Assembly: GCA_902774125.1 (NCBI GenBank)
Contig: CACYHD010000001.1
Coordinates: 2,058 to 66,057, forward strand
From: an uncultured Lachnospiraceae bacterium
Lineage (GTDB): Bacteria; Bacillota; Clostridia; Lachnospirales; Lachnospiraceae
DNA: 64,000 nt
Direction: 5' to 3'
Below the pieces are notes generated by a model, which was not told the origin of the DNA, searched no databases, and saw only the letters and a program-made list of their open reading frames with translations. The position numbers were made by a program, and so were the translations under genes. This document shows, piece by piece, positions 36,280-58,961 of this stretch (position 1 is its first letter; each line of letters starts with the position of its first letter).

Positions 36280-36765
36280 TTAATAATTAGTTTGTCCATT
36301 ATAGTTTCTACTATCGTCATCATCATAGTCATAATAGTCATCATCGCTACTACTACTATTATCTTCACTAGAACTACCACAACTTACAACATAAAGAATA
36401 AACATAATTACCACTAAAAGTGCAACTGTTGTTATGGCCAATGCTCTAACAAAAGCTCTAAAAATCCAAGTCATAACCAAAACAAAATCTAACCCAAATT
36501 TTCCTTCTCTTACCAAATAATAAATTATACAAACTACTAGTGACACTAAAAATATACCTATAAGACACATGTCTATCTTATTATCCCAGTCTATTCCGTG
36601 AGAGAAACAGTTAGTGATCCAACATGGTATCGCCACTAAACCGAATCCTGCAATAAAGTTTTCAAGCCAATACACATCACCATCCTCAAAAACAAGTTTT
36701 CCTAATCCAATAAATCCTAATCCTACTAAAGCTGCAATAATTACTACTGTTATTAATGTTGTCAT
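36280..36765 (-). CDS. hypothetical multi-pass membrane protein with acidic Ser/Asp tail
   Basis: Hydrophobic helices; AGGAG RBS 7 nt before ATG 36765 (track start 36789 is likely too long). Confidence 0.7.
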   Translation of the reverse strand: MTTLITVVIIAALVGLGFIGLGKLVFEDGDVYWLENFIAGFGLVAIPCWITNCFSHGIDWDNKIDMCLIGIFLVSLVVCIIYYLVREGKFGLDFVLVMTWIFRAFVRALAITTVALLVVIMFILYVVSCGSSSEDNSSSSDDDYYDYDDDDSRNYNGQTNY

Positions 36766-36812
36766 GATAATTCTCCTTTCAAAAAGCAATTAATTATTTC
36801 TTCTTACACTTA

Positions 36813-36843
36813 TATATACTGTCATTAAAAACGAGAATTAACA
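36813..36843 (-). promoter_or_regulatory. bipartite motif copy 1 (TGTTAATT-N12-GACAGTATATA)
   Basis: One of five exactly spaced copies; 47 nt upstream of ATG 36765. Confidence 0.75.
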
Positions 36844-36893
36844 TTTTTCACAAAAAAAGAACAAGGCATTACACCTTGTTCTCATTATTTTAG

Positions 36894-37200
36894 TTATTTA
36901 ATTACTCTTTCTTTTATTACAGCTTCCCTGGTGCTAATTATCTTTTCGGTGGTTTTAAGCGATTCTTCATTAATCTCTATCAATTTCTTCTCACCTAATC
37001 GCTCACCTCTTTCTATGCCTTCAAGAGATATCATTTCTATCAAGATTGAGCATTATTGTGCACTCTACAGGTTCTTTTCGTATTAGTTCTTTAAAATAAT
37101 CCATCGCCTCTGTGTAATGGACTCTATCTTCTTCAGGGGTTCTACATTTATCAATATTAATTAAACTCTCGTCAAATTGCAATATTTTAATAGTCATCAC
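36894..37200 (-). pseudogene. internally deleted, frameshifted paralog of the JAB/RadC-like gene at 37995-38645
   Basis: TIKILQFDESLINIDKCRTPEEDR aligns with TIKLLEYDEKLINADKCITPEKDR; stops at 37021; a second frame gives a weakly similar C-terminus; JAB core missing. Confidence 0.7.
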
Positions 37201-37228
37201 TCCTATCTTTTGCATTCCACGATGCTGA

Positions 37229-37511
37229 TTTTCAATTCCTCATAGTACTCCTGCAACAAAAAAGTGTTGATTGTTAATCTTTTTGGCGGTCCGTTTCAAT
37301 TCCTCATAGTACTCCTGCACAAAGACCAAGGAAGCGATACGAAAATTAGAAGAGTTTCAATTCCTCATAGTACTCCTGCAACTTTTTTATTTATATAGCA
37401 CTACGAAGGAGGACGTTATGGTTTCAATTCCTCATAGTACTCCTGCAACAACGAAATTGGTGATGATTTACTCATTTTACCAGTTTCAATTCCTCATAGT
37501 ACTCCTGCAAC
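37229..37511 (-). CRISPR. CRISPR array 1: 5 repeats, 4 spacers (33-38 nt); repeat GTTGCAGGAGTACTATGAGGAATTGAAAC
   Basis: Repeats start at 37229, 37293, 37354, 37421 and 37483; degenerate terminal repeat on the left; leader on the right. Confidence 0.97.
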
Positions 37512-37560
37512 AGACGGTTTTCCTAGCTCCGTCATAACCATTTTATCATAATATGTTGTT
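37512..37560 (-). promoter_or_regulatory. CRISPR leader 1
   Basis: GACGG...CCGTC inverted repeat next to the first repeat; TGATAAAAT extended -10-like element; near-identical to 39208-39256. Confidence 0.75.
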
Positions 37561-37683
37561 TTTTCAATATTTTAGGCCTTTTTTGACCTCAATTATTCGT
37601 CGGGGATTGTTCAAAAATCCCTATAATACGGCATAATAACCTCCCTTCACAAACCAAACCTCGAGTTACTAAACCAATCCTTA

Positions 37684-37896
37684 TCAAGTCTTACTAGTCA
37701 GATTCAATTTAAAGTCTCCTTTCTCAATATACGCACTCTTACAACAAGCAGCAAAAATTCCAGCAATAATTATTCCAGCCCCGCATTCAACTATTCTAGT
37801 AATATTATCTCCGCTTAATTTGTCACATAAACTAGTCTTGCCTGTTGTTGCTTCGTTAGTAGTTACTTCGTTAATTTCTTTTCTGATATCTGTCAT
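37684..37896 (-). CDS. small (about 70 aa) single-helix membrane protein between the arrays
   Basis: ATG 37896 with GAGGT RBS; hydrophobic GAGIIIAGIFAACC; track start at 37998 lies inside a terminator. Confidence 0.55.
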   Translation of the reverse strand: MTDIRKEINEVTTNEATTGKTSLCDKLSGDNITRIVECGAGIIIAGIFAACCKSAYIEKGDFKLNLTSKT

Positions 37897-37936
37897 AATA
37901 CACCTCATTTCTAAAACAATTGCTCGGTTACACTTA

Positions 37937-37967
37937 TATATACTGTCATCAGAAATGAAAATTAACA
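37937..37967 (-). promoter_or_regulatory. bipartite motif copy 2
   Basis: TATATACTGTC-N12-AATTAACA on plus strand; 40 nt upstream of ATG 37896. Confidence 0.75.
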
Positions 37968-37976
37968 TTTTTGCAT

Positions 37977-38010
37977 AAAAAAAGCAGATTTTTTTCAATC
38001 TGCTTTTTTT
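37977..38010. terminator. terminator overlapping the stop of the JAB-like gene
   Basis: AAAAAAAGCAGATT...AATCTGCTTTTTTT. Confidence 0.8.
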
Positions 38011-38645
38011 TGATATGCTTTTCTGAATAACTCTTCTTCCATTTTTCTGATTTCCTCTTCTCTACTATTCAAATTCTTAGTTGCAACTTCAACCATATTA
38101 CAATCATCTAAGTATTTGCTTTCAATAGTAATACCTGCCCTATCTAACAGTTCATATTTTTCTTTACTTTTTCTAAAAACCTCTCTATATCGATATGCCG
38201 CCAACAACTCTTCGTCATATTCAAGAACTTTCCCATCAGGCATTACCACAAAATTTGCTGCAAATATTATTTCATATTCTGCTAAGTTTTTGGCCATTGA
38301 TCTAGTAAAAAGAATATCTCCTTCCGAAAAATATTCATATTTTTGTAAAGTGTGATTATGCATATATACAACCGACTTAGCTTTACTTATTAAGGTTGGC
38401 GCAAATAATTCCGAGAAAGGAACATCCACTCTATTAGCGTCATTAGAAGTATGCTTGCAATAGTTTATTATATTACCTTTTTCATCAAGATTGATAATTA
38501 TTGAAGACTCAATCTTATCGCTCCTAATCATATCAAAAAAATAATCTAATGCATCTTCACAGTAGATTCTATCCTTTTCAGGTGTTATGCACTTATCTGC
38601 ATTTATTAGTTTCTCGTCATATTCTAATAGTTTAATGGTGATCAC
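37995..38645 (-). CDS. divergent JAB/MPN (RadC-like) domain protein
   Basis: IESSIIINLD...VVYMHNH-x8-SEGDILFT resembles the RadC E...HNHx7SxxD motif. Confidence 0.65.
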   Translation of the reverse strand: MITIKLLEYDEKLINADKCITPEKDRIYCEDALDYFFDMIRSDKIESSIIINLDEKGNIINYCKHTSNDANRVDVPFSELFAPTLISKAKSVVYMHNHTLQKYEYFSEGDILFTRSMAKNLAEYEIIFAANFVVMPDGKVLEYDEELLAAYRYREVFRKSKEKYELLDRAGITIESKYLDDCNMVEVATKNLNSREEEIRKMEEELFRKAYQKKAD

Positions 38646-38672
38646 TCCTTTACTTACATATTCATGGTGTGG

Positions 38673-39207
38673 TTTTCAATTCCTTATAGTAGTTCAACAA
38701 CCACTAGGTTTCATTTGTGCCTTATATAACAGACTGTTTCAATTCCTTATAGTAGTTCAACAACTTGATGATCCATGGGTCTGACTTCTATGCTATGCTT
38801 CAATTCCTTATAGTAGTTCAACAACGACTAAGAAACATAGCTAATTGCATAAACACCTAGTTTCAATTCCTTATAGTAGTTCAACAACACCTATACAGAT
38901 AGGCAAATAGAAGAACTTATCAAGCTTCAATTCCTTATAGTAGTTCAATAACTGCTTCATATAACAGATGAGTGCTCAACATATCTTGATGTTTCAATTC
39001 CTTATAGTAGTTCAACAACGCCGAAGATGTTCCAACACCCACATTACAAGTGTTTCAATTCCTTATAGTAGTTCAACAACTCGGCATCGTTGAGTCTTGC
39101 ATCAAAGATAAGCAGGGTTTCAATTCCTTATAGTAGTTCAACAACCTGAAGCCCTTGATGAAGCAATACCTTTCGTTGGTTTCAATTCCTTATAGTAGTT
39201 CAACAAC
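38673..39207 (-). CRISPR. CRISPR array 2: 9 repeats, 8 spacers (32-38 nt); repeat GTTGTTGAACTACTATAAGGAATTGAAAC
   Basis: Repeats start at 38673, 38736, 38797, 38860, 38924, 38991, 39052, 39117 and 39179; variants concentrated toward the trailer side. Confidence 0.98.
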
Positions 39208-39256
39208 AGACGGTTTTTCTGGCTCCGTCATAACCATTTTATCACAATATGTGTAT
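39208..39256 (-). promoter_or_regulatory. CRISPR leader 2
   Basis: Homologous to leader 1 (AGACGGTTTT.CT.GCTCCGTCATAACCATTTTATCA). Confidence 0.75.
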
Positions 39257-39446
39257 TATTCAACTTTTCATAGTAATTACCGGCATCTTTTTTCGTCGAG
39301 GAATTCACAAAAACCGCCATTTTACAGCATTTTTTGTATTAGCATATCCTCGACGAAAAATTGCAATATAATTAGTGACTTCTATAACTCCACAATCTAT
39401 TTAATTGCTTTTAATTATAGATCATAAAGTATTTTATATTTCCCTA

Positions 39447-40691
39447 TTAATAAGACACTAACTCTCCCTTCTTAGCATTTAAATTTGTTATTTTTTTCAA
39501 CTCTAACACTGATTTACTATCCAGTTTTTCTTCAATAGAACTTATTCTATCCTTTATCTCGCTCACGTTCCATTCGACATAATCACTATTCAAATCATAC
39601 GATTTCTTCTTAACAATAACTTTCTCTACGCGATTGTTTACACTTCCTAGTCCCAACGGTTTTCCATGTCCAATTTTTTGACAATATATTTCATTATCGT
39701 TATCTCCTAGTGATATTGCCCATAGTAATTTGTTTAACTCTTCCTCTGTGATGCCGTCGAAGAAAACACTATAACGAAACTCTGCATTTTCTTTTATCAA
39801 ATCCATAGTAGCATTTCGTTTGTTTCTTTTTACCCTTTTAGAGCCATTAATATCAAACTTATGATGCCAATAGTATTTTCTTCCATTCAAAAACTCTGCA
39901 TTTACTTCAAAAAAGTGTTTATTCTTTTCTGCGTCAGTATAATAGCCATAAGACCACGATTTGGCACTGTCATCAGGCTTCTTAGTGTACAACTTCACTG
40001 CTGAAACCTGAGGAGATGCAAGTTCTTTAAGCGTTATGTTTTTATGTGTCATTTCTTCCAACGGTTTCCCTAATTCCATCACAGCATCTGTAAACCTCAC
40101 TCTACTTCCCATTGCTCTTTCACCAGTCAAACCAAACAGTGCGCATGTACTACATACGTTTTCTTTTCGAACACATACAGAATGCTTACCCATTATAGAT
40201 TTCATTTTTTTATTACGCGTCGCACTCGTATTTTTTCCATCAGTTAGCTTGCCTTCGTCAATTTTGCTCACACATGATTCAGTTACTGTTTCAAAAATAT
40301 TTCGCATGCAACCACGAATACTACTACCTGGTATTATAGGAATACCTCCAACTTCATAAAAATAATAACTTTTGTGTTCATCATTTTTATTCTTTATTTT
40401 ATCTGGAATAGCCAAAGGTGACTTCGTTTTTAAAACACAATCTATTCTACCTGAAATCAGTTTTTCTTTATTATCATTCAAATATTCTTCTATATTACGT
40501 CTGACTAATCTTTTAGAAAAAGGAATGAATGTATAAGGATTTACCTTTTCTGTCTTATTTTTAGTTCCCCTACTTCCTTTATTACCATTTCCCTTGCGAT
40601 TGTTGTTACGATTATAATTATTATTTTTGCTTCCGTAATAACCAGGTCGAGAACCATTCTTGCTACCATAATTATCATTTTTCTCAGCCAT
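39447..40691 (-). CDS. cas7: type III-D Cas7-group RAMP (TIGR03986-like), short form
   Basis: NPYTFIP, IPGSSIRG, CALFG, GRKYYWH and IGHGKPLGLGSV. Confidence 0.88.
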   Translation of the reverse strand: MAEKNDNYGSKNGSRPGYYGSKNNNYNRNNNRKGNGNKGSRGTKNKTEKVNPYTFIPFSKRLVRRNIEEYLNDNKEKLISGRIDCVLKTKSPLAIPDKIKNKNDEHKSYYFYEVGGIPIIPGSSIRGCMRNIFETVTESCVSKIDEGKLTDGKNTSATRNKKMKSIMGKHSVCVRKENVCSTCALFGLTGERAMGSRVRFTDAVMELGKPLEEMTHKNITLKELASPQVSAVKLYTKKPDDSAKSWSYGYYTDAEKNKHFFEVNAEFLNGRKYYWHHKFDINGSKRVKRNKRNATMDLIKENAEFRYSVFFDGITEEELNKLLWAISLGDNDNEIYCQKIGHGKPLGLGSVNNRVEKVIVKKKSYDLNSDYVEWNVSEIKDRISSIEEKLDSKSVLELKKITNLNAKKGELVSY

Positions 40692-40692
40692 A

Positions 40693-41184
40693 TTACTTAC
40701 CTCCCTTCACTATCTCAACAACTCTGTAGTCTACAATCTTTGCAATGCCTTCGTCGGTGTATTGAATGTAGTTCTTAATCTTTAACTTAGCATCGTCATC
40801 ATACAATTCCGCTGGGAGCCTGTATTTTCCACCGCCAGTGCTAACCACTTCTATCGTTCCATATTGATCAGCGTCTTGTCGTGTTTTTGTAGTATCAATA
40901 TCTAAGAATTGTGTTTCTTCGATTGTATCTCTAGGGTCAGATTCATCTAGTGTTCTTACCTTAAAATCTTCAGAGATAGAGTTTCTCCAAATTCTAGTCT
41001 CGGACTCTTTATTGAAAACTCTTACCTCAAGCAAATGGTTGATGTCGATTGCATCCACATCGAACTTATCTAATGGCCATATGCCCAATTTCTTATCAGT
41101 GTAGAAAGGCATAATATATGACGCGTTTGTATCGCGAATCGCTTCAACCAATTGGTCTTTTTTGTATTTTTCAATTGTCATCAT
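40693..41184 (-). CDS. csx19: Csx19 (type III-D signature)
   Basis: LEVRVFNKESE, QFLDID, KIKNYIQY and DYRVV pattern; position between RAMP genes. Confidence 0.8.
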   Translation of the reverse strand: MMTIEKYKKDQLVEAIRDTNASYIMPFYTDKKLGIWPLDKFDVDAIDINHLLEVRVFNKESETRIWRNSISEDFKVRTLDESDPRDTIEETQFLDIDTTKTRQDADQYGTIEVVSTGGGKYRLPAELYDDDAKLKIKNYIQYTDEGIAKIVDYRVVEIVKGGK

Positions 41185-41194
41185 TCACACCTCC

Positions 41195-42463
41195 CTACTT
41201 GTCTAAGTATTGCTTAATACTCTTATATACGTTGTTTTGAGCATCAGTCAAATCTAATGGCTCGTTTGCGTTTTTAGTAACCTTCTGTATCTTGAACAAT
41301 CCACGCCCTATGGAAGTGAGTCCACCCACTGCTAGAAAACCATAGTTCAAATCCGTCAGCGTTGCCGCCAATGCATGATTTAGTGCTTCCACCTGATCGC
41401 TCAAGTCCTCATCTTTTTTGATTGTGATTACTAACTCTCCGTTGCCGTAGTAATATGTCTTTTCCTTGAACAGTGCCGAATCCAAACTACCGCCCGAAAA
41501 TCTGTCTATCGCATTTCTTGTGTTAATTTTTTCTTTAGCATCTTTTAGCATTGTCTCTGAGAAAAATATGTTGGACTTAGTCTTTTTGCCGTCCTCGCCC
41601 TGTCCACTAGAACCAAACCAAGCCTCGTCATTCTTGCTATCCCAGTATTCTTTCATGCGAGATCTAAATGCTCCCGCCCAACTTGTTCCAGGAACAACAG
41701 GAGTTTCTTTGCCATTCTGATCCTTTACTGTAAGCTGAACGAAATCTGGGCCGTTCGCATCTTCCTCGTCTTTTCCCACATCAGTCGAATACTTACGAAT
41801 AGATATTCCTCCTTCTTGCTCAAGAGCTATTCTAATAACATCGTAAGAATCATTTTCATTAGTAAGCGCTTCACTATATTCTTGCCAATCTTCGCTCGTA
41901 TACATATCAAAGTCCAACCACTTCTCAATATCAGCTGAAGAACTCATATCAAACTTAACGTGCCCTATATTGATTACTTTAATTTGTCCATAACCTCTAG
42001 TAGTCTTAGCACCAAAATGACACGCACTACTTTGCATAAAGGAAAAAAGCTGTGGTATGCACTTATCAACAATATCGCTTTCATCGCTCACTTCGAGGAA
42101 AGTTGTAAACTTAGCACCTGTCTCTACGACCTGAAAGTCCATCTTAGCGCCAGCCTTAGCAACTTTGTGTTCATCAAGAGCAACTCCATCTCTGATTGAT
42201 ATTCTATACCAGCCATTTACGTTAGCATCATATGTAATGATGCTACTTTCTGTATATGCTTCTCCGTTTGTTTCACCAAAGATTTCATTGGCTACTTTTT
42301 CTTCAATTGAATGTCTAAGCACACCTGCTATCGCAGAACCCGGAATGTACGGTCTCTCATTTGAGTTAAGATTAACATCATTATCTGTTACATAATCTGT
42401 TCCACATCCCACTATAAGAGGAGATGCTAGTTCAAACTCGATTTTGTAATATACTTTTTTCAT
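41195..42463 (-). CDS. cas7: Cas7-Cas7 fusion (two RAMP domains)
   Basis: Two sets of RAMP motifs: IPGSAIAGVLR/FGAKTTRGYG and VPGTSWAGAFR/VGGLTSIGRG. Confidence 0.85.
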   Translation of the reverse strand: MKKVYYKIEFELASPLIVGCGTDYVTDNDVNLNSNERPYIPGSAIAGVLRHSIEEKVANEIFGETNGEAYTESSIITYDANVNGWYRISIRDGVALDEHKVAKAGAKMDFQVVETGAKFTTFLEVSDESDIVDKCIPQLFSFMQSSACHFGAKTTRGYGQIKVINIGHVKFDMSSSADIEKWLDFDMYTSEDWQEYSEALTNENDSYDVIRIALEQEGGISIRKYSTDVGKDEEDANGPDFVQLTVKDQNGKETPVVPGTSWAGAFRSRMKEYWDSKNDEAWFGSSGQGEDGKKTKSNIFFSETMLKDAKEKINTRNAIDRFSGGSLDSALFKEKTYYYGNGELVITIKKDEDLSDQVEALNHALAATLTDLNYGFLAVGGLTSIGRGLFKIQKVTKNANEPLDLTDAQNNVYKSIKQYLDK

Positions 42464-44712
42464 TACTTATTCTCCTCCTTCTTAATAGCGGCTCTGTACT
42501 TAAGTGTTTCAAATATATGCATTAAATAATCATATTTAAGTTTATGCTTTGTCTCATCTTTTAGACTAGCGTATTCTTCTTTCTTCAACTCTACGTCTAT
42601 ATCTTCAATCCACACATTTGCAATTTTTCTCTTTGACTTATCCCTTATGCTATTTACACGTTTCTTGAAATTTTCTTCCTTATTAGCAACTAACTCCTTA
42701 GAATCATATTCAGATTCAAGCAGCATCAACTTCACTCTACCAATAAATGAATTAGTAGCATCTCCAACAGTTGACATCTTACTTGCATCTCTACTTGCTT
42801 TCTCGTGCAATTTTTCACTCAAGTACTTAATCCTAATCTTTTCCATAATTGCTTTAACATCTTCTGAACAACTGTTGATATTTGTATTCACTTTATTCTC
42901 AACATTGTCAGATGCAACAGCAGTGTCAACCTTATCCCTGTCTTGAACATACTTAGAATAATATGATTCAGTTGCAATCTTAAGTTGACCGTAGCCTTCT
43001 TTGTTGTCGACACCTACCCACATAGATGTAGGAACACTCACATTCTCCAGGACATTAAATACAAATGAACTTCCCGCTGTAATAGCAGGTTTTGGAGCTT
43101 TACGCATATTCCAAACACCATAGTATCCTGTCTGTTTTTTACCTGTAGCTAGAATAAGTGGTCTATTCATATCTTCACTTATCTCGGAAGCGTCATCCAC
43201 AACATCTTTAGTTTTTGCAATTTCTAAAAATGTTTTTCCAACTACCTGTTCAATTTGGTTTTTGATCATCAATGCCACTTCTTCTACATCAGTAACATAT
43301 CCTGTTTCATTTTCAAATACTGAATCTGACTCTAAAACGACAACTAGTTTGTCCTCTGTAGTAATGTCCTGATTCTCAGTCTTTATGACTTTAAATACTT
43401 TATTAGAACCATCATTTTCCAATGTACATTTGCCATACTGAGCTGACTTAGACTTACCTAATCTTATATCTTGTTCACACATCAACTTCATTATTTCTTG
43501 AATAAGATCAGCATCACCTGTTATAGTTCCCGTAAAATACTGTCCAGGGCTAAGCACTTCTGACATGTACAAAAGTCGATCCATATCAATTTGCTTTCTG
43601 CGGTTATGATACACAACTTCATATACTGGTGCATATTTCTCAACTTCAAGTTTAGCCACTTCATCATTATAAACAAGACTAATAAACTTGTCTCTCAGTG
43701 GCTTAGGATATAGATTCTTTTTATTAGGTTTTGCATTAATACGTGTTGCATAATCAGCCGGATTTTCTTCGCCAGCTTCCTTATACTGACCCATACATAA
43801 AGGTGCTGGTTTGTAAATCTTACTAGCACTATTATTAGATGGATATGCATTAGAAAAAACTACATCTCCACTTACAAATAGTTTTTCAAAAGTATCATCA
43901 ACTTTATTTTTTCTTAAATAATTACCAGCCAATGCACCTTGTATCATTTGACCTTTAATATAAGGCATTGTAGCACTATCATTCTCAGAAGAAAGAAGAA
44001 GCGGCTGTTCATTGCGCAATGTGTATCTAATTGTAACTTTACCAGCCCCATTCAAAGCTATCTCATCATTATTAGAAGCCGACTGCTTATCCTGTTCTAA
44101 TGATACTTTGACATTGCCTAGACCACGGTTTCTGTTAAGTCCCATATGTCTAACAGCTTTACATGTTTTACTCAATATTTCTTCATATGATTCGTTTTCG
44201 TCTATTCCATCCACCTTTGCAAAGAAAACTAAGTTATCCCCTTCGGCAGATGTAGGATTATACTGATTAACAACTCTGATATATCTAAGAGTATTATCCT
44301 CAGCTACACCTTCCTTGTTAATCTTTGTTTGTGCAACGATGGTAGTATACTGTTCCAAAACATCCTGTGCAGTATATTTTTCATCACTACTATCCTGCAA
44401 ATCGCGCAGTTCACGATATATAGTCTTATAGTTATCTATGTATGCATCGGAAAATCTAATTCCCTTAGTAGAATCAGCTCCACTTTCTCCGAACATCAAC
44501 TTGATACATTCATCATCCTCTTCTTTTTCAGCAGTGTTGTAAACAATCCTAGCCGCATCTCTTAGAACACCTTTGATTCGTCTCGCAGGAATATAAGGAA
44601 GTCCTACTTTGTCGTAGCAGACATCACTGTCCACTATTCCAGCATATGAATAACCTGATCCAATACATAGATTGGATTGTAATTCTATTCTTATTAAAGC
44701 CATCCTTTTCAC
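42463..44712 (-). CDS. csx10: Csx10-like Cas7-Cas5 fusion with probable C-terminal Cas11-like helical domain
   Basis: LPYIPARRIKGVLR, GLNRNRGLG, IKGQMIQGAL, LGKSKSAQYG and VGVDNKEGYG, then an all-helical tail. Confidence 0.82.
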   Translation of the reverse strand: MKRMALIRIELQSNLCIGSGYSYAGIVDSDVCYDKVGLPYIPARRIKGVLRDAARIVYNTAEKEEDDECIKLMFGESGADSTKGIRFSDAYIDNYKTIYRELRDLQDSSDEKYTAQDVLEQYTTIVAQTKINKEGVAEDNTLRYIRVVNQYNPTSAEGDNLVFFAKVDGIDENESYEEILSKTCKAVRHMGLNRNRGLGNVKVSLEQDKQSASNNDEIALNGAGKVTIRYTLRNEQPLLLSSENDSATMPYIKGQMIQGALAGNYLRKNKVDDTFEKLFVSGDVVFSNAYPSNNSASKIYKPAPLCMGQYKEAGEENPADYATRINAKPNKKNLYPKPLRDKFISLVYNDEVAKLEVEKYAPVYEVVYHNRRKQIDMDRLLYMSEVLSPGQYFTGTITGDADLIQEIMKLMCEQDIRLGKSKSAQYGKCTLENDGSNKVFKVIKTENQDITTEDKLVVVLESDSVFENETGYVTDVEEVALMIKNQIEQVVGKTFLEIAKTKDVVDDASEISEDMNRPLILATGKKQTGYYGVWNMRKAPKPAITAGSSFVFNVLENVSVPTSMWVGVDNKEGYGQLKIATESYYSKYVQDRDKVDTAVASDNVENKVNTNINSCSEDVKAIMEKIRIKYLSEKLHEKASRDASKMSTVGDATNSFIGRVKLMLLESEYDSKELVANKEENFKKRVNSIRDKSKRKIANVWIEDIDVELKKEEYASLKDETKHKLKYDYLMHIFETLKYRAAIKKEENK

Positions 44713-44715
44713 CTC

Positions 44716-46356
44716 CTATATTTCCCTTTTATCGTCGAACCAAATATCATAAACAAGTACCATATCATATATCAATTTTTGAATCTTATCAGAACTCAAA
44801 TTCTCTATGTCGAAATAATCTTTTGGCAATTTGTGATGTGCTTTGATTCTTTCTAATTCCTTGTCAAAACTTGCCTTGCTATTAAAAGCATGCGTCAACA
44901 AGTTTTTAACATTGTTACGTCCAACTTCATTATGATTTAGTTTTTTTTGCATCTTCTTAACTACTTCGTCTGTAATACTTGCCGGCTCTTCATCTTGATC
45001 AGTGATTACCTTCCAAGGCCTTGAAGAGTTTTCTTCAAAATGTTCTTTTTCTCTTATCATATCTAATGAACTGTTAATACCGCTTTGGCAGTATTGATAA
45101 TCAATCCATGTTGTATTTTCTTTCTCATGCGCTTTTTTCTTAGCATTGTCACAGCATTCCTCTGCAATTCTATAAGCATCGGAAAAAGGTGTATGGCTAT
45201 GGAATATAGCTATTCCCGCACAAGAAGTGAACTTATTCTCATTAGTATTATTGGCAACTGCTTTAAGATAAGCTAAGCACAAATCATATGCCAATCTAGC
45301 ATTACATATGAATGTTGCTTCATCTCCTGCACCAACTATTCTTCGATATCCATACTTCCATAAATCTTTTTTATTGCCGTTATACTCGTTTGTTACGACA
45401 GGCACTCCGCCTTTAACCTCTACTCCATCAGGTGATACCTTTGTTAGATATTCATCTAATTTATCGTATCCCGCTACTACGGTTACATCATTAATAGTCT
45501 TAGAGAAACTCTGGAAGTTCTTAACTGCATTCTCCCATCTCTTGCCTTCTGCATCTTTAGCTTCACGATCAGCAACAATTGCTCCCATATTGTTTCCGTC
45601 AATGAATGCAACTGCAAGCAAACTTTCTTCACCTTTTTTATGAATATAATTATCTAATTCTTTTCCTCCCGATGTATCCATACCATTAACTTTATTCTTT
45701 TTTTCCTCATAATCAGTATACTTTTTATACTCTTTAAGTTTAGCTGATGATTCTTTAGAAACTTTGTCATCTTTAGAAGCAGATTTATTACTATTGTCCC
45801 TTTCACACAGAGGAAAAGCTGTTTTTCTGTCAACCTGAACAAAAGGTAGAACATTGCATCTATCAACTGCTATATCCATGTTTTCTACCATATTGTGTTT
45901 CTTATATAATTTCTTTCTTGTAGCATAAAAATCTTGCTTATCAAGTTCTGCCGGTACATAAGAACAAATCATATTGAGCCCATAGTAATCCTCTAGAAGT
46001 TTTTTAGAGAAAACCTTGTTGATTCTTTCGCATGTATCAGCGCAGTCGAATAGTATATTAAGGTTTCCACCTCCCTCATATACTACTATTCCCTTGTGTT
46101 CGTCTTCCTTAAACATAGCATCACTATAAACTTCGTTTGACGATTTGACTATAGAAACACCAACCGACTTAGCTGCATCCACAAGTCTTCCAGTAGGATG
46201 GCCTTCTTTCTGATCATCATGATGGTCAAAAAAACCGTTTTTGATTATTTGTGATGCTCCTATAATTTCTTTAATTCTATTAGTTCTATATATGAACTTC
46301 TGCTTAGCACGAAAATCATATAGTGCTAGAACTGGTCCTTGTATTTTATTTGACAT
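44716..46356 (-). CDS. cas10: type III-D Cas10, HD-less, with variant palm motif GAGDE
   Basis: YDFRAKQKFIY, YEGGGN, AFIDGNNMG, RIVGAGDE, CAGIAIFHSHTPF and AEECCDNAKK; start reassigned to ATG 46356. Confidence 0.9.
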   Translation of the reverse strand: MSNKIQGPVLALYDFRAKQKFIYRTNRIKEIIGASQIIKNGFFDHHDDQKEGHPTGRLVDAAKSVGVSIVKSSNEVYSDAMFKEDEHKGIVVYEGGGNLNILFDCADTCERINKVFSKKLLEDYYGLNMICSYVPAELDKQDFYATRKKLYKKHNMVENMDIAVDRCNVLPFVQVDRKTAFPLCERDNSNKSASKDDKVSKESSAKLKEYKKYTDYEEKKNKVNGMDTSGGKELDNYIHKKGEESLLAVAFIDGNNMGAIVADREAKDAEGKRWENAVKNFQSFSKTINDVTVVAGYDKLDEYLTKVSPDGVEVKGGVPVVTNEYNGNKKDLWKYGYRRIVGAGDEATFICNARLAYDLCLAYLKAVANNTNENKFTSCAGIAIFHSHTPFSDAYRIAEECCDNAKKKAHEKENTTWIDYQYCQSGINSSLDMIREKEHFEENSSRPWKVITDQDEEPASITDEVVKKMQKKLNHNEVGRNNVKNLLTHAFNSKASFDKELERIKAHHKLPKDYFDIENLSSDKIQKLIYDMVLVYDIWFDDKREI

Positions 46357-48046
46357 TTTTTCTCTCCTTGTCATAATGAATATTATTCGCATCCAATGCA
46401 AAAGCAAAAGCGCTATATTTATTAACACCGGCTGTGTCATATTTTTTATAATTAGATTCTACTTTTACATCCTTTAAAGAATAGAATTTTATATTTTCAT
46501 TTATTGCTTCTTTCAAAAGATTTCTAATACTCTGATACTCTCTCGAAAGATTTCTCTTAAATTTTTCGTTCACAATCGCTAGTTTTCCCAATAAATCCGA
46601 AGCATGATTCATACAGTTTCTCAATTCTTTTATACAAGTATAGTATTCCAGTATTCGAGCTATCTCTTCTTTATAATCAATACTATTTTGAGAATATATC
46701 AATTTATACTCTTGAGGTATATTATTACCACCATTAGTATTATTTTCTTCTGCAGTTTCGATCACTATTTTTTTACGTTGATGGCGTCTTTTCAGTATTA
46801 GTACTGCATCAATCATACTCTCCCTTTTAATGGTCTTTTTAGTATTATTTCCGCTCAGATCAATAGACTTTACTTTTTCTGTTTTTTTTCTCAGATTTAT
46901 TCCTATAGGTAAAATGGCATCATAATAACTTTTAAAATCCTTACTTATTTTTTCAATATCTTTTTCTTCATAACCCTCCTTAACATTCTTATAATCCTTT
47001 TCTTTATTTCTTAATAACTCCAACATTATATCCATTTGTGAATAATCATCAAATATTTTTTCAGTGTACAATGTCGCGGCTTGTTGTATCATTCCATTTT
47101 TTACACACCAATCCACCCAATCTAAAATGCTATTTTCATCTGAAAGAGGCATTTTATTTTCTATATTTTTAACCAGCCCCCTTACCATACTTGAAAACAA
47201 ATTGCTATCAATTTCATTTTTTTTGCACTCTTCTATACATTTTTTTATTTCTTCAATATTATTTTGGAATTCCTCCACATAAGAAATATTCATATTCTCT
47301 GAAAACTTGTTCAGACTTGATATAAGCCTACTAACATCATCACTAACATTGTCTTCTTTTTCTTTTAGTGCCATTAGTTTTACTGCACTTCCAGTTGTTA
47401 CAAATTCATCCACCGCATTTATTATGGAAAACATTGAATAAACACGATCTAATGGATGCAATATACCATCCTTATCCTGGTTGTACTCTGAATAAACACT
47501 TTTAGCACAAATCTTATTGTTATATTCAAGAAATCTGAGAATTGCTAACATCAAGAAATTTATATCTCTCATTCCGCCAGAACAATCGATATAATAATAA
47601 TCATTTTTTTCGGATAATTCCGCTATACGTCTATATATTTTCTCTATTTTTTCTTCCGTATTTTCGATTTTTTCATCAACCTCAATTTTTTTAATGACTA
47701 TTGTTTCCCCGTCTACAATAATGCTATTATCCGCAAAATCATTGGTGATTATTGGTTGCACATTTTCATATTTTTTTTCACGCAAGTATTTAGCAATATT
47801 ATTAACAAAATTCGAATAAGCGCTTTCTCCATCATCTTTTTGTTTACGAGATTCTTCAGTAACCAAACATATAATAGTATTAATATCATGTTGGTCCGCT
47901 TGAGCCTGATGAACCAAGTATTTAGTCGGTGCATCATTTGTTTGTGCACCTTTAAATTCAGTATTTGTATTTTCCACAGTATAACTTTTTGCAGCCATGC
48001 CAGGTCGATATGTGCTAATAAATGTTAACAATGTTCCGTTTTCCAT
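46346..48046 (-). CDS. csx1: Csx1/Csm6-like CARF-HEPN ribonuclease (TM1812-type)
   Basis: CARF motif YIDCSGGMRD; VDEFVTTGSA; HEPN R-x4-H motif LRNCMNHA. Confidence 0.8.
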   Translation of the reverse strand: MENGTLLTFISTYRPGMAAKSYTVENTNTEFKGAQTNDAPTKYLVHQAQADQHDINTIICLVTEESRKQKDDGESAYSNFVNNIAKYLREKKYENVQPIITNDFADNSIIVDGETIVIKKIEVDEKIENTEEKIEKIYRRIAELSEKNDYYYIDCSGGMRDINFLMLAILRFLEYNNKICAKSVYSEYNQDKDGILHPLDRVYSMFSIINAVDEFVTTGSAVKLMALKEKEDNVSDDVSRLISSLNKFSENMNISYVEEFQNNIEEIKKCIEECKKNEIDSNLFSSMVRGLVKNIENKMPLSDENSILDWVDWCVKNGMIQQAATLYTEKIFDDYSQMDIMLELLRNKEKDYKNVKEGYEEKDIEKISKDFKSYYDAILPIGINLRKKTEKVKSIDLSGNNTKKTIKRESMIDAVLILKRRHQRKKIVIETAEENNTNGGNNIPQEYKLIYSQNSIDYKEEIARILEYYTCIKELRNCMNHASDLLGKLAIVNEKFKRNLSREYQSIRNLLKEAINENIKFYSLKDVKVESNYKKYDTAGVNKYSAFAFALDANNIHYDKERKNVK

Positions 48047-48048
48047 CT

Positions 48049-48780
48049 CTATTCCTCCACTTCTTTTATCATTCCAAATCCCTGGGCGTTTTTTGATCCG
48101 ATTCCGACATTGAGGATCATGGTCAAGGCTTTGGGGTTGCCGTATAGTTTAAATTTTCCGAGCCAACCTGTCATTGGCGTTCGTTTATATCTTGTCGCGT
48201 ACTCGATTGGTGTGCTACCATCAGCTATCGCGATTAACATATCCGATGTTGCATCCTCTCCGCAGAGAGTTACGTACTTACGCTTGTAATTGTCGTTGAT
48301 TAGTTCTACGAACTCTTCTTCGTCTGGTGCGAAAAACTGCATCGCCTTGGTATGTAAGTCAGTCCTGTGAGCCATGATAGGCGAAAGCGTCTCCACCAGT
48401 ATTTCGTTTTTCATCGTAAATACATCAACTAGTTCCGTCTTGATGCTTGTATATTTCTTCTTACCGAACTGAATTCCATCTTCCAATAAAACAGTATTCA
48501 ATTCTTTTATCCAATCATCATAGACACTTGATATAGAAAACTTAATGTCACCTCTATATGTCAATCTACCTAATTCTTCAGTATAGTCACCTTCGATTAG
48601 GCTGAAGGTAAACAACTTGTACGTTCGTTTACCGTACTTGACCCCTTCATCGTGTAGCCATTTGGTGTACTCTGGATTACCTTTAGAGCTCACGCTATAT
48701 ATGGCCGCTTGAAGAATTTGATGATAATTCTGAGGAACTGTAAGCGGACTATCAAGTGTTACCGTTACATCCAATCTCAT
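48049..48780 (-). CDS. cas6: Cas6 crRNA-processing endoribonuclease
   Basis: KLFTFS, TLSPI and the C-terminal Gly-rich loop GIGSKNAQGFG. Confidence 0.95.
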   Translation of the reverse strand: MRLDVTVTLDSPLTVPQNYHQILQAAIYSVSSKGNPEYTKWLHDEGVKYGKRTYKLFTFSLIEGDYTEELGRLTYRGDIKFSISSVYDDWIKELNTVLLEDGIQFGKKKYTSIKTELVDVFTMKNEILVETLSPIMAHRTDLHTKAMQFFAPDEEEFVELINDNYKRKYVTLCGEDATSDMLIAIADGSTPIEYATRYKRTPMTGWLGKFKLYGNPKALTMILNVGIGSKNAQGFGMIKEVEE

Positions 48781-48798
48781 TCCCTTTTCTCCGTTCTT

Positions 48799-49158
48799 TT
48801 AGTATTCTCTAAATCCCATAAACTTGAATACCGCTGTTTTGACCGTCTCTCCGTTCTCGTTGACGGTTTCTTTAGTTTCACGCACTGTGCATGAAGATAG
48901 TACTTTGATATTTCTTCTCTTTAATTCAGTCACTAAAGCAAATGTCAAACTAAAATCTCCTACACAAAGAACAGCAGCTGGTTTTTGGCTAGCTATCTTT
49001 TCCGCCTCATCCTTTGCCATCTGCTGTATATCTTCTTTAGTATCCGAAGGCGACACATTCTTAAATGGTATATCCACTACTTCCCCATATTGCAATGCCG
49101 CCTCATATTGTTCTTTTGACCATCTATCAGATGGGTGGTTTGAATAATTAATAAACAT
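48799..49158 (-). CDS. small Csx15/Csx20-like protein, candidate ring nuclease
   Basis: FINYSNHPSDRWS...GEVVDIPF...VLCVGDF...F.FMGFREY pattern typical of small type III ancillary proteins; exact family not resolved. Confidence 0.6.
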   Translation of the reverse strand: MFINYSNHPSDRWSKEQYEAALQYGEVVDIPFKNVSPSDTKEDIQQMAKDEAEKIASQKPAAVLCVGDFSLTFALVTELKRRNIKVLSSCTVRETKETVNENGETVKTAVFKFMGFREY

Positions 49159-49225
49159 AGTATCATCCCCTTTACTTGTAATATTCTAAATGTCACGTCA
49201 TTCGAAAAAAACAGATGTATATCCG

Positions 49226-50485
49226 TTAATCTTCGTATGTCATTTTTCCTAACTTTTCATTTATTGTTTTCAGAGATCTCGAATAAGAACTAGGTTTTAC
49301 ATCAATAAATTCTGCAACCTCTTTATCCGTATATTCGACTCCTTTGAGAACCATATTGTAGTATATTCCATATAAATTCTCAGTAGATTCCGGTTCAGGC
49401 TCTACAGTACTTCTAGCATAGTCGTATTTGAACATTTTTCTCATAAAGTCACTGTCATCTTGAGACATTATTGTATATATCTCTTTGTTTCCAGCAGGCT
49501 CTTTATCGTAAAATTCTTTGCCGTCGTCTGTTTTGAGTTCTTTCATTATGTTTTTAGTCGCATCTAATGCCAAAATCGCACGGTGATTAGCTCTAGTTAA
49601 ACTCAAGTATCGTTTAAATAGTTCTTCCATTCCTGCTTTAATAGTCTGTGATTTATCATTAAACAAATTATCCAGCTGTTCTTTCTGTTTTTCGTCCTCT
49701 ATGTTGTCTATCAAACTTATTTCTTCATCACCGTCAAGAGAATTAATATGATCCGAAACAACCAAAACTCCTCCTGATTTCATGTATTTTTCAACTTGTT
49801 TGAAAGTCTCTTCAGTGTGTTTTTTGTATTGAGGATCATCTCTCATTATGTCAAGAATATCCTGCTCACTAAGACATGTATATGCAACATCCCCTTTCAT
49901 ATGCTCAAGAAATTCTTCCTCAATTGGACGCATATAATTAGGCTCTTCTTTCATCCTCTCAACAGCTTCCTCTTCAGTGTAATAATTACAATTCATTGAA
50001 GCATGAAGAGATCTCGCATCACAAATCAATTTGTAGACAGTTCTACTAATTCTAATAGGCTCTTCCTTTAGATAATAATCAATCCATACATTATCGTAAA
50101 CGCTACGATAGTATGTATAGAACTTTGCACCTTTAGTACTAGAAAAATACTTTAAAGCCCTTGTTACAGCTTCAAGAGCAGCGACGTTATCATACTCTGG
50201 AAGAAATGTATTGTCAGCCATTAATGAGCCATGCTTTTTGATTCCTTTAGTTCCAATAAATTTAATAGCACTATCAATCGCTTCATCGTAATCCTGATCG
50301 TCATCGATGTCATCATAATAAATTTTAGAATCTAGTTTTGATCCATCAAGATAATACACCAACAGAAGTATCTCATCACGATACTTGTTATCTACATCTT
50401 TTTCCAAAACCTCTTTACGTTTTTCATCACTCATTTGAAATAGAGGATGATTATTTAATTGTTCTAATTTCTCTTTCCTAGTCAT
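49226..50485 (-). CDS. divergent sigma70-family factor inside the cas operon
   Basis: Region 2-like ALKYFSSTKGAKFYTYY...EEPIRISR (compare AVEKFD..KG.KFSTYA...RTIRIP); region 3.2-like SLDGDEEISLIDNIED; region 4-like YTDKEVAEFIDVKPSSYSRSLKTINEKL. Confidence 0.75.
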   Translation of the reverse strand: MTRKEKLEQLNNHPLFQMSDEKRKEVLEKDVDNKYRDEILLLVYYLDGSKLDSKIYYDDIDDDQDYDEAIDSAIKFIGTKGIKKHGSLMADNTFLPEYDNVAALEAVTRALKYFSSTKGAKFYTYYRSVYDNVWIDYYLKEEPIRISRTVYKLICDARSLHASMNCNYYTEEEAVERMKEEPNYMRPIEEEFLEHMKGDVAYTCLSEQDILDIMRDDPQYKKHTEETFKQVEKYMKSGGVLVVSDHINSLDGDEEISLIDNIEDEKQKEQLDNLFNDKSQTIKAGMEELFKRYLSLTRANHRAILALDATKNIMKELKTDDGKEFYDKEPAGNKEIYTIMSQDDSDFMRKMFKYDYARSTVEPEPESTENLYGIYYNMVLKGVEYTDKEVAEFIDVKPSSYSRSLKTINEKLGKMTYED

Positions 50486-50495
50486 TTTCCGCTCC

Positions 50496-51107
50496 CTAAT
50501 CCATCTTTAATAGTTTCTTTAAGAATTCTTCTGGTTTCTGTAGTTTCAGATCATCAAGATCCTTAATAGTTCTATTCAAAAATACTAGATTAGTAATTTC
50601 GTAAAAGAATGCTTCTCTTTCTTTTCCTTCGTTTCTCTGTACTTCGCCGTAGTAAACGCCCTGCACCTTTACGTTGCGGCGAATGTACTCTAGTGAGTCA
50701 AGTAGGTATGCCATCATCAGTGACATAACCTTAGTTCCGTATGTTATACATGCGTATACATCAGAGTCTTCTTCTATAGCGTTAAGTACCTGCATGAATA
50801 GTTTTACGCCTGTGTCGTATTCTTGATTTTCTGGAACAGCGACATCCACTATCTGCTCTGGCTTAATGCCAAGCTCTGCTGCTTCATCGTAAAACATCTT
50901 TAAGTTAGTATCAGAATCATCATTTTTAAATCTTACTGTAATAACTTGTGTCTCGATTTCATCTTCCTGATATCTTTTGATTACAGGAATAATAGGAAAT
51001 CTTGTTTCCATGTTTGTGTCAAAATCTACTCCCTGAGTTCTCTTGTATACTTGAGGATTCAATTTCCCTCCCATCATAGGAATAACTGTAATAAATACAT
51101 TTTTCAT
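50496..51107 (-). CDS. stand-alone CARF-domain protein (TM1812-like), no effector domain
   Basis: VFITVIP N-terminal strand; VYACITYGTKVMS (compare DxTHG/DITYG); GVYYGE; 203 aa, no HEPN motif. Confidence 0.7.
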   Translation of the reverse strand: MKNVFITVIPMMGGKLNPQVYKRTQGVDFDTNMETRFPIIPVIKRYQEDEIETQVITVRFKNDDSDTNLKMFYDEAAELGIKPEQIVDVAVPENQEYDTGVKLFMQVLNAIEEDSDVYACITYGTKVMSLMMAYLLDSLEYIRRNVKVQGVYYGEVQRNEGKEREAFFYEITNLVFLNRTIKDLDDLKLQKPEEFLKKLLKMD

Positions 51108-53658: not shown

Positions 53659-53698
53659 AATAAAACTCCTTTCAGACTCGTTTATTGTTCTCTATTTA

Positions 53699-53729
53699 TA
53701 TATACTGTCATTTCACAAGGGAATTAACA
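53699..53729 (-). promoter_or_regulatory. bipartite motif copy 3
   Basis: TATATACTGTC-N12-AATTAACA; 40 nt upstream of ATG 53658. Confidence 0.75.
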
Positions 53730-58920: not shown

Positions 58921-58961
58921 AATAAACTCCTTTCGAATCATCAATTATTTACTCACACTAA

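What the first reader, a model, noticed from the sequence alone, without database searches (positions are those of the whole stretch)
36894..39256. Duplicated leader-array-JAB cassette with diverged repeats
Each array has a near-identical leader and the same T-for-G change in its terminal repeat. Each is followed within about 30 nt by an RBS and a JAB/RadC-like gene (intact after array 2, internally deleted after array 1). The repeats differ at 5 of 29 positions but keep the ATTGAAAC handle, and no spacer is shared. This indicates duplication followed by independent repeat homogenisation. The JAB mRNA probably is the tail of the pre-crRNA, so Cas6 processing could release it. I know of no described role for a JAB protein in type III-D.
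Basis: partly seen in the sequence, partly recalled or inferred. Interest (0 to 1): 0.6.

Follow-up and report, generated by a model that had tools for sequence, protein, structure and literature searches.

The report
Twin CRISPR arrays trailing RadC-like genes
Two old copies of a promoter-CRISPR array-RadC-like gene unit sit behind a type III-D CRISPR operon; the RadC-like gene looks like a plasmid-derived passenger that probably rides on the array transcript, not a general CRISPR partner.

Summary
On the minus strand, after the last type III-D gene, there are two units. Each has a conserved sigma70-type leader promoter, an array (9 or 5 repeats of 29 nt, differing at 5 positions, no shared spacer) and a terminal repeat with the same last-base change. 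GGAG follows 24-25 nt later, then a RadC-like JAB ORF and a strong intrinsic terminator.

JAB2 (216 aa) is intact, with the E..HxH..S..D site and a RadC fold. JAB1 keeps only about 54 homologous codons. Its 3' part matches nothing, so it is truncated; an internal deletion is not shown.

The copies are old: synonymous sites are saturated and dN/dS is about 0.24. Leader similarity therefore reflects constraint on the promoter, not recent duplication.

No promoter or terminator lies between array and JAB, so co-transcription is likely.

JAB-array linkage is not general:
- The JAB subfamily has three members among 1.8 billion representative proteins.
- The only relative with context lies on a Rep_3 plasmid-like contig without an array.
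- None of 10 other type III-D genomes has RadC on the Csx19 contig.

Each unit is followed by a locus-specific promoter motif (five copies in the genome) driving a small membrane protein. The scan has one unchecked note of a RadC-like gene after an array in another genome.

Interest is modest.

The parts
39209..39330 (-). Leader 2. The part homologous to leader 1 includes a small GACGG...CCGTC hairpin just before the first repeat.
39236..39263 (-). Leader-2 promoter: TTGAAT, 16-nt spacer, extended -10 TGaTAAAAT.
   Evidence: 9/12 matches with TG; the element is conserved in leader 1.
38673..39207 (-). CRISPR array 2: 9 repeats of 29 nt and 8 spacers. The terminal repeat ends in A instead of C.
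38646..38672 (-). Junction 2: 24 nt followed by the GGAG ribosome-binding site. The region is predicted to be unusually unstructured.
   Evidence: (z +2.56 for 38620-38701).
37995..38645 (-). JAB2, a 216-aa RadC-like JAB protein with E46, H96, H98, S107 and D110 intact and a C-terminal helical hairpin.
   Evidence: PF04002, 43 bits; motif; pLDDT 79; PDB 2QLC RadC, TM 0.76.
37977..38010 (-). Intrinsic terminator overlapping the JAB2 stop codon, -16.1 kcal/mol with a U tract.
37936..37967 (-). Locus-specific promoter motif TGTTAATTY-N12-ACAGTATATAT, copy 2.
   Evidence: 5 copies in 1.9 Mb, all in this window.
37684..37896 (-). Small membrane protein TM2: 70 aa, one hydrophobic helix, no family match.
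37513..37634 (-). Leader 1, the part homologous to leader 2.
37540..37567 (-). Leader-1 promoter: TTGAAA, 16-nt spacer, TGaTAAAAT.
   Evidence: 10/12 matches with TG.
37229..37511 (-). CRISPR array 1: 5 repeats and 4 spacers. The terminal repeat ends in A, and the fourth repeat starts TGTG.
37021..37215 (-). JAB1 remnant, a 64-aa ORF. 37039-37200 is homologous to JAB2 residues 1-54, and the metal-binding motif is missing.
   Evidence: P0005 and P0021.
36894..37034 (-). Sequence after the JAB1 break: a 46-aa ORF in another frame, with no detectable similarity to JAB C-termini.
36857..36883 (-). Intrinsic terminator after JAB1, -14.6 kcal/mol with a U tract.
36812..36843 (-). Locus-specific promoter motif, copy 1.
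36280..36765 (-). Membrane protein TM1: 161 aa, about 4 hydrophobic helices and an acidic tail. It is unrelated to TM2.
48049..48780 (-). Cas6, the only Cas6 found in the genome and the presumed processor of both arrays.
39447..51107 (-). Type III-D operon: CARF, sigma-like protein, Csx20, Cas6, a 566-aa CARF-like protein, Cas10, Csx10-type fusion, Csx7-type, Csx19 and a TIGR03986 RAMP.

Best explanation
These are two anciently diverged paralogous CRISPR transcription units at the 3' end of a chromosomal type III-D operon. Each is read from a conserved sigma70-type promoter that ends about 27 nt upstream of the first repeat. Transcription runs through the array and, with no promoter or terminator in between, continues into a RadC-like JAB ORF and stops at a strong intrinsic terminator (inferred from sequence).

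The single Cas6 probably cuts both repeat variants 8 nt from their 3' ends. The reason is that the conserved 3' 19 nt of the repeat is kept, while the differences lie mostly in the 5' half, which varies across this repeat family. A cut in the terminal repeat would leave a JAB mRNA that starts with AUUGAAAA (inferred, untested).

The JAB gene belongs to the mobile-element branch of RadC-like proteins. It most likely arrived as a passenger from a plasmid-like element and hitchhikes on the array promoter. It is not a conserved component of type III-D. One copy is already a truncated remnant.

The shared last-base change of the terminal repeats marks an inherited array-JAB junction. The rest of each terminal repeat could have been updated by repeat-repeat recombination during spacer loss (inference).

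Behind each terminator sits a separate, locus-specific promoter that drives a small membrane protein. This is a second, independent transcription unit.
For: - Anatomy and homology of the two units.
- Leader promoters with an extended -10 sit at equivalent positions. No promoter-like site of at least 9/12 lies upstream of JAB2 inside array 2, and no terminator lies before either JAB.
- Terminators after the JABs fold at -16.1 and -14.6 kcal/mol.
- The genome has one Cas6. The repeats are unstructured. The 3' 19 nt of the repeat is shared by arrays in Muribaculaceae, Aeribacillus and Thermacetogeniaceae, which have other 5' halves.
- JAB2 is a RadC-like JAB by profile, motif and fold. The genome also has a canonical RadC elsewhere, scoring 144 bits against 44 for JAB2.
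- The subfamily is tiny: P0002, P0003 and JAB1 are the only close hits among 1.84 billion representatives.
- The relative L012 lies after Rep_3, 3D-domain and DUF4313 genes with no repeats nearby.
- There were no hits in plasmid, phage or viral collections.
- RadC is never on the Csx19 contig in 10 other type III-D genomes.
- Atlas look-alikes are RadC domains of ArdC-N/YodL polyvalent proteins of Bacillota elements (a lead only).
- Old divergence under purifying selection: dS about 1.3, dN/dS 0.24.
- The JAB1 truncation is shared by a second strain.
Against: - Co-transcription and the Cas6 cut are therefore inference.
- AT-rich spacers can carry promoters. One 9/12 site (37299-37270) lies inside array 1.
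- The array-JAB junction persisted in both copies across a divergence that saturated synonymous sites, with dN/dS of 0.24. This argues for more than a transient passenger.
- Differences at repeat positions 5, 6 and 8 could matter if this Cas6 binds the 5' end of the repeat, as some Cas6 proteins that act on unstructured repeats do (from my own knowledge, not tested).
- The GGAG-to-ATG/GTG spacing is 0-2 nt, so efficient translation from the annotated starts is doubtful.
Confidence: 0.6

Rival explanations
1. JAB is a true functional partner of this type III-D system. It might be a nucleic-acid-processing enzyme acting on crRNA or on targets, or a regulator. Its expression would be deliberately tied to the array transcript and to Cas6 cleavage.
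For: - The linkage to the array end is kept in both old paralogous units, with the same terminal-repeat variant and the same GGAGTGAT ribosome-binding context.
- dN/dS is 0.24 over the shared 54 codons.
- The catalytic residues are intact.
- The RadC clade has been proposed to process nucleic acids (PMC5512222).
- An unchecked scan note reports another RadC-like gene right after an array in another genome.
Against: - One copy has decayed, in two strains.
- The subfamily's other context is a plasmid-like contig without CRISPR.
- Linkage is 0/10 in other type III-D genomes.
- RadC and JAB are absent from the main text of three type III accessory surveys.
- JAB2 has no CARF or SAVED sensor domain.
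Confidence: 0.15
2. The two units are not an in-situ duplication. They were brought together from different lineages, for example by recombination between the resident array and an array-JAB module from a related strain or element.
For: - In the N-terminal 54 residues, JAB1 is as far from JAB2 (54%) as the plasmid-like L012 homologue is (58%).
- Synonymous sites are saturated.
- The sequences flanking the homologous unit are unrelated: TM2 versus TM1, and the upstream regions.
- This does not match a simple tandem duplication.
- The region has lower GC than its flanks.
Against: - Both units carry the locus-specific promoter motif, which occurs only in this 22-kb neighbourhood.
- The two motif copies are closer to each other than to the other three.
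- No donor-like locus was found anywhere.
- Faster change in the broken JAB1 could inflate its distance.
Confidence: 0.2
3. JAB2 is transcribed from its own promoter inside the last spacer or terminal repeat. The repeat end TTGAAA resembles a -35 hexamer. On this reading, JAB2's position after the array has no regulatory meaning.
For: - Every repeat ends in TTGAAAC, a 5/6 match to a -35 hexamer.
- One such site with a downstream -10-like hexamer scores 9/12 inside array 1.
Against: - No site of at least 9/12 lies upstream of JAB2.
- The sequence 17 nt after the terminal TTGAAA is TAAGTA in unit 2 and CAAAAG in unit 1. Neither is a good -10, and they are not conserved.
- Only 24-25 nt separate the repeat from GGAG.
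Confidence: 0.15

Closest known systems
Ordinary multi-array type III CRISPR loci with a degenerate terminal repeat
   Same: - Leader with a promoter, 29-nt repeats and spacers of 32-38 nt.
- An 8-nt ATTGAAAC handle and a mutated last repeat.
- One Cas6 serving more than one array.
- No adaptation genes in the locus: no Cas1 was found in the assembly.
   Different: Each array runs without a gap, promoter or terminator into a protein-coding ORF. The whole promoter-array-ORF-terminator unit is present twice, with diverged repeats.
RadC-like JAB domains of mobile elements (polyvalent proteins and solo forms; Iyer et al. 2017, PMC5512222)
   Same: - The JAB fold and E..HxH..S..D site.
- No N-terminal helix-hairpin-helix domain.
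- The nearest relative with context is on a Rep_3 plasmid-like contig next to DUF4313 and 3D-domain genes.
- Atlas look-alikes are fused to ArdC-N or YodL.
   Different: - The gene is chromosomal and sits inside a CRISPR transcription unit.
- The motif is HNHT..Q.Y..FS..D rather than HNHPSG...PS..D.
- The later DH motif of RadC is absent.
- There is an extra C-terminal helical hairpin.
Canonical RadC (YicR/UPF0758; PDB 2QLC)
   Same: It is the best structural match (TM 0.76 on the target) and belongs to the same Pfam family.
   Different: - JAB2 scores 33 bits against the NCBIfam equivalog cut-off of 180.
- It lacks the N-terminal domain.
- The genome has its own canonical RadC on another contig.
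CreTA-type modules, in which a degenerate mini-array next to cas genes controls an adjacent gene (from my own knowledge, not checked in the literature here)
   Same: A repeat-derived element sits directly upstream of a non-cas gene at the edge of a CRISPR locus.
   Different: - These are full arrays with real spacers, not a single pseudo-spacer.
- No complementarity between any spacer and the JAB region or the genome was found.
- A type III guide of the same sense as the mRNA could not pair with it.

Membership tests
CRISPR array (type III-D associated) | Three or more near-identical direct repeats of 23-47 nt separated by unique spacers of similar length. | tested here: met
   There are 9 and 5 repeats of 29 nt, with spacers of 32-38 nt, all unique.
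CRISPR array (type III-D associated) | Adjacent cas genes of the subtype, including Cas6 and Cas10. | tested here: met
   Csx19, Csx10-like, Csx7-like, TIGR03986 RAMP, Cas10 palm2, Cas6 and Csx20 lie directly upstream on the same strand.
CRISPR array (type III-D associated) | A leader with a promoter on the side opposite the degenerate terminal repeat. | tested here: met
   Conserved TTGAAw-16-TGaTAAAAT promoters are present. The variant repeat is at the far end.
CRISPR array (type III-D associated) | Transcription and Cas6 processing into crRNAs. | not testable with these tools
RadC-like JAB domain (PF04002) | A profile match above the curated cut-off. | tested here: met
   JAB2 scores 43.3 bits against a cut-off of 22.1. 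The L012 homologue scores 38.6 bits.
RadC-like JAB domain (PF04002) | The metal-binding E ... HxH ... S..D motif. | tested here: met
   E46, H96, H98 and D110 are invariant and S107 nearly so in the alignment with 14 relatives. JAB1 lacks everything after residue 54.
RadC-like JAB domain (PF04002) | The JAB/MPN fold. | tested here: met
   The model has pLDDT 79. The best PDB match is RadC 2QLC (E 2e-6, TM 0.76), followed by JAMM1 and Rpn11.
Canonical RadC (NF000642/TIGR00608 equivalog) | A full-length match, including the N-terminal helix-hairpin-helix/UPF0758 domain, above the equivalog cut-off. | tested here: not met
   JAB2 scores 33.1 bits against a cut-off of 180, and only the JAB part aligns. 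The canonical gene is on contig C25.
Type III CRISPR accessory (ancillary) gene | Recurrent co-location with type III loci in unrelated genomes. | tested here: not met
   - In 0 of 10 other Csx19-bearing genomes is RadC on the same contig.
- The only relative with context is not near CRISPR.
- The cassette is absent from 24 genomes of the same genus.
- The sample is small.
Type III CRISPR accessory (ancillary) gene | A sensor domain for the Cas10 signal (CARF, SAVED or similar). | tested here: not met
   RadC is the only Pfam or NCBIfam match. The model shows a JAB core plus helices.
Type III CRISPR accessory (ancillary) gene | Co-transcription with cas genes or the array. | tested here: inconclusive
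   The sequence shows no promoter or terminator between the array and JAB, and a terminator after JAB. There are no RNA data.

The most novel reading that the evidence does not exclude
The RadC-like gene is a deliberately array-coupled gene. It would be made only as the tail of the pre-crRNA and freed by Cas6 cutting in the terminal repeat. Its mRNA would then start with a near-perfect crRNA handle (AUUGAAAA), so its level would be set by array transcription and by competition with the type III-D complex for that handle. The enzyme would act on nucleic acids in crRNA maturation or interference. That would give the enigmatic RadC clade a first defined context and show a new way of wiring a gene to a CRISPR array.
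Probability: 0.1. Interest if true: 0.65.

Novelty: new variant of a known kind. Interest (0 to 1): 0.3.

Why it matters
If the read-through is real, a protein-coding gene is expressed as the 3' tail of a pre-crRNA and released by Cas6. I found no description of this arrangement in the papers searched. It would be a simple natural example of CRISPR processing controlling an mRNA.

It also gives a testable setting for a RadC-like protein, a family with no agreed function.

On present evidence, however, the arrangement is confined to one species, and one of the two copies is already broken. It is more likely a curiosity of locus history, a plasmid gene lodged at an array end, than a new principle.

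The finding also sharpens a separate observation on this locus. The two small membrane-protein genes after the JAB terminators belong to a five-member promoter set found only around this type III-D operon.

Tried and rejected
I could not fetch the contigs of P0002 (687 nt), P0021 (14.7 kb) or P0003.
There is no RNA evidence.

Searches that found nothing:
- Pattern-based searches for JAB relatives found nothing in genome contigs or viral contigs. One locus turned up in metagenome contigs.
- tblastn of JAB2 against plasmids and phages gave no match.
- blastn of the arrays and cassette against phages and plasmids gave no match, so no protospacer was found.
- Two newest spacers, as exact 26-mers, gave no match in viral contigs.
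- Spacers against the genome and L012 gave no self-target and no hit to the plasmid-like contig.
- The cassette DNA was not found in 24 genomes of the same genus or 16 of the order.
- The RAMP protein in 200 genomes of the family gave only partial hits at 35-38% identity.
- The region has no Rfam match.

Ideas rejected:
- Internal deletion of JAB1: the 3' part scores at or below the mean of shuffled controls, as DNA and as protein.
- Repeat hairpin covariation: both repeats are unstructured, with free energy about 0.

A survey that failed:
- I searched PF04002 in 400 genomes of the class as a survey of non-canonical RadC genes. It listed only the strongest, canonical matches, so it could not be used for an array-adjacency survey.
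Full report
**What is there**

All genes in the region run on the minus strand. A type III-D operon ends at 39447. It comprises a stand-alone CARF protein, a sigma-like protein, Csx20, Cas6, a 566-aa CARF-like protein, Cas10, a Csx10-type fusion, a Csx7-type protein, Csx19 and a TIGR03986 RAMP. Two CRISPR arrays follow it.
- Array 2 spans 39207-38673 and has 9 repeats.
- Array 1 spans 37511-37229 and has 5 repeats.
- The 29-nt repeats differ at positions 5, 6, 8, 10 and 17. Both end in ATTGAAAC.
- All 12 spacers are different and match nothing else in the genome.
- These 14 repeats are the only copies of this repeat in the 1.9-Mb, 86-contig assembly.
- The assembly has one Cas6. No Cas1 was found (completeness 92.7%).

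**The repeated unit**

BLAST and alignment of the two stretches show homology in four pieces:
- the leader (87% over 86 nt including the first repeat, with weaker homology out to about 125 nt);
- the repeats;
- the junction plus the first 54 codons of the following ORF (68-75% nucleotide identity);
- a 57-nt element after the ORF (89%).

The best-conserved leader part is a sigma70-type promoter with an extended -10. It reads TTGAAT-16-TGaTAAAAT at 39263-39236 and TTGAAA-16-TGaTAAAAT at 37567-37540. From the -10 to the first repeat there are only 2 differences in 34 nt.

Both terminal repeats carry the same single change, a last base A instead of C. GGAG follows after 24 or 25 nt, and then the ORF begins.

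After each ORF comes a strong intrinsic terminator, at -16.1 and -14.6 kcal/mol with U tracts. The scan found no terminator between array and ORF. It found no promoter-like site of at least 9/12 upstream of JAB2 within array 2. One 9/12 site lies inside array 1.

**The ORFs**

JAB2 (38645-37995, 216 aa) is a RadC-like JAB protein:
- It matches Pfam RadC at E 4e-11.
- It keeps E46, H96, H98, S107 and D110 in an alignment with 14 relatives.
- Its AlphaFold model (pLDDT 79) matches the RadC crystal structure 2QLC best, at TM 0.76, followed by JAMM and Rpn11 proteases.
- It lacks the N-terminal domain of canonical RadC and scores far below the NCBIfam equivalog cut-off.
- The genome has a canonical RadC on another contig.

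JAB1 keeps only the first 54 residues at 54% identity, and then stops. The following 140 nt has no similarity to JAB2 or to the C-termini of relatives beyond shuffled controls. JAB1 is therefore a truncated remnant, and an internal deletion is not demonstrated. A second strain carries the same truncated ORF with one substitution (P0021). A Logan contig reads through the same spacer 8 and terminal repeat into JAB2 (P0019). The structure is therefore not an assembly artefact.

**Age of the duplication**

Over the 54 shared codons, pS is 0.62 (dS about 1.3, saturated), dN is 0.31 and dN/dS is 0.24. In the same 54 residues, JAB2 is 54% identical to JAB1, 58% to the plasmid-like homologue in L012 and 80% to P0002.

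The two units are thus old paralogues, or were brought together from different lineages. The high identity of the leader and of the downstream 57-nt element must reflect selection on these elements or gene conversion. It does not reflect recent duplication.

The flanks of the homologous unit are unrelated, both the two membrane proteins and the upstream regions. A simple tandem duplication does not describe the present state.

**Repeat divergence**

The 3' 19 nt of the repeat (TACTATRAGGAATTGAAAC) occurs in arrays of a Muribaculaceae MAG (43 copies), Aeribacillus composti and a Thermacetogeniaceae MAG. Those arrays have quite different 5' halves. Four of the five differences between the two arrays here lie in that variable 5' half. 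The fifth is the A/G position that also varies in the wider family.

Both repeats are unstructured. One Cas6 serving both arrays is therefore plausible but untested.

The terminal repeats carry their own array's five variant positions together with the shared last-base change. This fits an inherited array-ORF junction, with the remainder of the repeat replaced by repeat-repeat recombination. That is inference.

**Is JAB linked to arrays elsewhere?**

- An exhaustive profile search of 1.84 billion representative proteins found only three close relatives: P0002, P0003 and JAB1 itself. After those come ordinary RadC proteins at E of 1e-5 or worse.
- The only relative whose DNA I could read is L012, a 4-kb metagenome contig. 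It lies at the end of a row of small genes after a Rep_3 initiator, a 3D-domain protein and a DUF4313 protein, with no repeats nearby. This is a plasmid-like context.
- No relative was found in the plasmid, phage or viral collections.
- Among 400 genomes of the same order, 10 others have Csx19. In none is a RadC-family match on the Csx19 contig.
- The cassette is absent from 24 genomes of the genus.
- The main texts of three surveys of type III accessory genes do not mention RadC or JAB.
- RadC is described as a domain of conjugative-element polyvalent proteins with a suspected nucleic-acid-processing role (PMC5512222). Its function is still called unknown in a 2025 review (PMC11981726).
- Atlas look-alikes of JAB2 are RadC domains fused to ArdC-N or YodL in Bacillota elements (a lead only).

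**Most likely mechanism**

The leader promoter drives a single transcript covering the array, JAB and the terminator. Cas6 cuts 8 nt before the end of each repeat, including the terminal one. This frees a JAB mRNA that begins AUUGAAAA, followed by 24 nt and the ribosome-binding site. That region is predicted to be unusually open in unit 2 (z +2.56).

JAB itself is most likely a plasmid-derived passenger. The rival view is that it is a real partner of this system. That view draws support from the long persistence of the junction in both units under purifying selection. It is weakened by the decay of one copy and the lack of linkage elsewhere.

**Beyond the finding**

The 57-nt element after each terminator contains a motif, TGTTAATTY-N12-ACAGTATATAT. 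It occurs exactly five times in the genome, all on the minus strand of this window:
- upstream of the two small membrane proteins;
- upstream of the LRR surface protein gene, which lies next to the CARF gene;
- twice upstream of the MoxR-type ATPase gene.

This confirms an earlier scan note on a locus-specific promoter set. It also shows that each 'cassette' is really two transcription units.

**Verdict**

The arrangement is a new variant of a known kind of locus, of modest interest unless RNA data or a wider survey show that the coupling is functional.

Noticed in passing
window 36812-36843, 37936-37967, 53698-53729, 58961-58992, 59066-59097 (minus strand): The promoter-like motif TGTTAATTY-N12-ACAGTATATAT occurs exactly five times in the 1.9-Mb genome, all in this window. 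The copies lie upstream of two small membrane proteins, a BspA-type LRR surface protein and a MoxR-type ATPase operon. It is a candidate regulon of the operon's own sigma-like protein.
   Followed up: partly
window 38631-38633 and 37192-37194; L012 3104-3106: ATT may be the conserved start codon. In JAB2, JAB1 and the L012 homologue, ATT AAA lies 7-8 nt after GGAG. The annotated GTG/ATG starts lie only 0-2 nt after it. In L012 no in-frame ATG, GTG or TTG covers the 35 conserved N-terminal residues.
   Followed up: partly
window 39209-39229 and 37513-37533 (minus strand): A 5-bp stem, GACGG...CCGTC, lies directly before the first repeat in both leaders. Both leader differences in this stretch fall in the loop. 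It could be a 5' hairpin of the pre-crRNA.
   Followed up: no
window 39290-39302 and 39348-39360: A perfect 13-bp inverted repeat (TTTTCGTCGAGGA / TCCTCGACGAAAA) lies upstream of the leader-2 promoter. Leader 1 has a related CGACGAA segment with a different small hairpin. It could be a regulator site.
   Followed up: no
whole genome G000: No Cas1 was found in the assembly (92.7% complete), and there is only one Cas6. The type III-D locus appears to lack its own adaptation module.
   Followed up: partly
L046/L048 (Muribaculaceae MAG CALUMG010000010.1), L040 (Aeribacillus composti), L039 (Thermacetogeniaceae MAG): Arrays in distant phyla share the 3' 19 nt of the repeat (TACTATRAGGAATTGAAAC) but have unrelated 5' halves. 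This points to a widely shared Cas6 recognition or handle module.
   Followed up: partly
protein P0019 (Logan contig, 1283 nt): A public gene call for JAB2 is 250 aa long. It was translated with TGA read as Trp, so it reads through spacer 8, the terminal repeat and the stop codon. This is an annotation artefact, but it shows the same junction in an independent data set.
   Followed up: yes
L012 1-4012 (metagenome contig Ga0326513_10031116): A plasmid-like fragment carries a Rep_3 initiator, a 3D-domain protein, DUF4313, several small ORFs, a 57-aa membrane peptide and then the JAB homologue. The stop codon of the peptide gene lies 1 nt before the JAB ATT codon.
   Followed up: partly
window 37634-37659 and 40694-40719 (minus strand): The same strong ribosome-binding stretch, GTGAAGGGAGGT, precedes the last RAMP gene. 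It also precedes a 7-codon mini-ORF just upstream of the leader-1 promoter. This is either a remnant or chance.
   Followed up: no
window 26000-54000: The CRISPR locus and its neighbours have 33-37% GC, against 39-43% in the flanks. The neighbours include an FtsH-like AAA-M41 protease without membrane helices, HicB, an XRE regulator, a J-domain protein and a ClpX-like ATPase. The region is probably an acquired island, but no integrase or transfer genes were seen.
   Followed up: no
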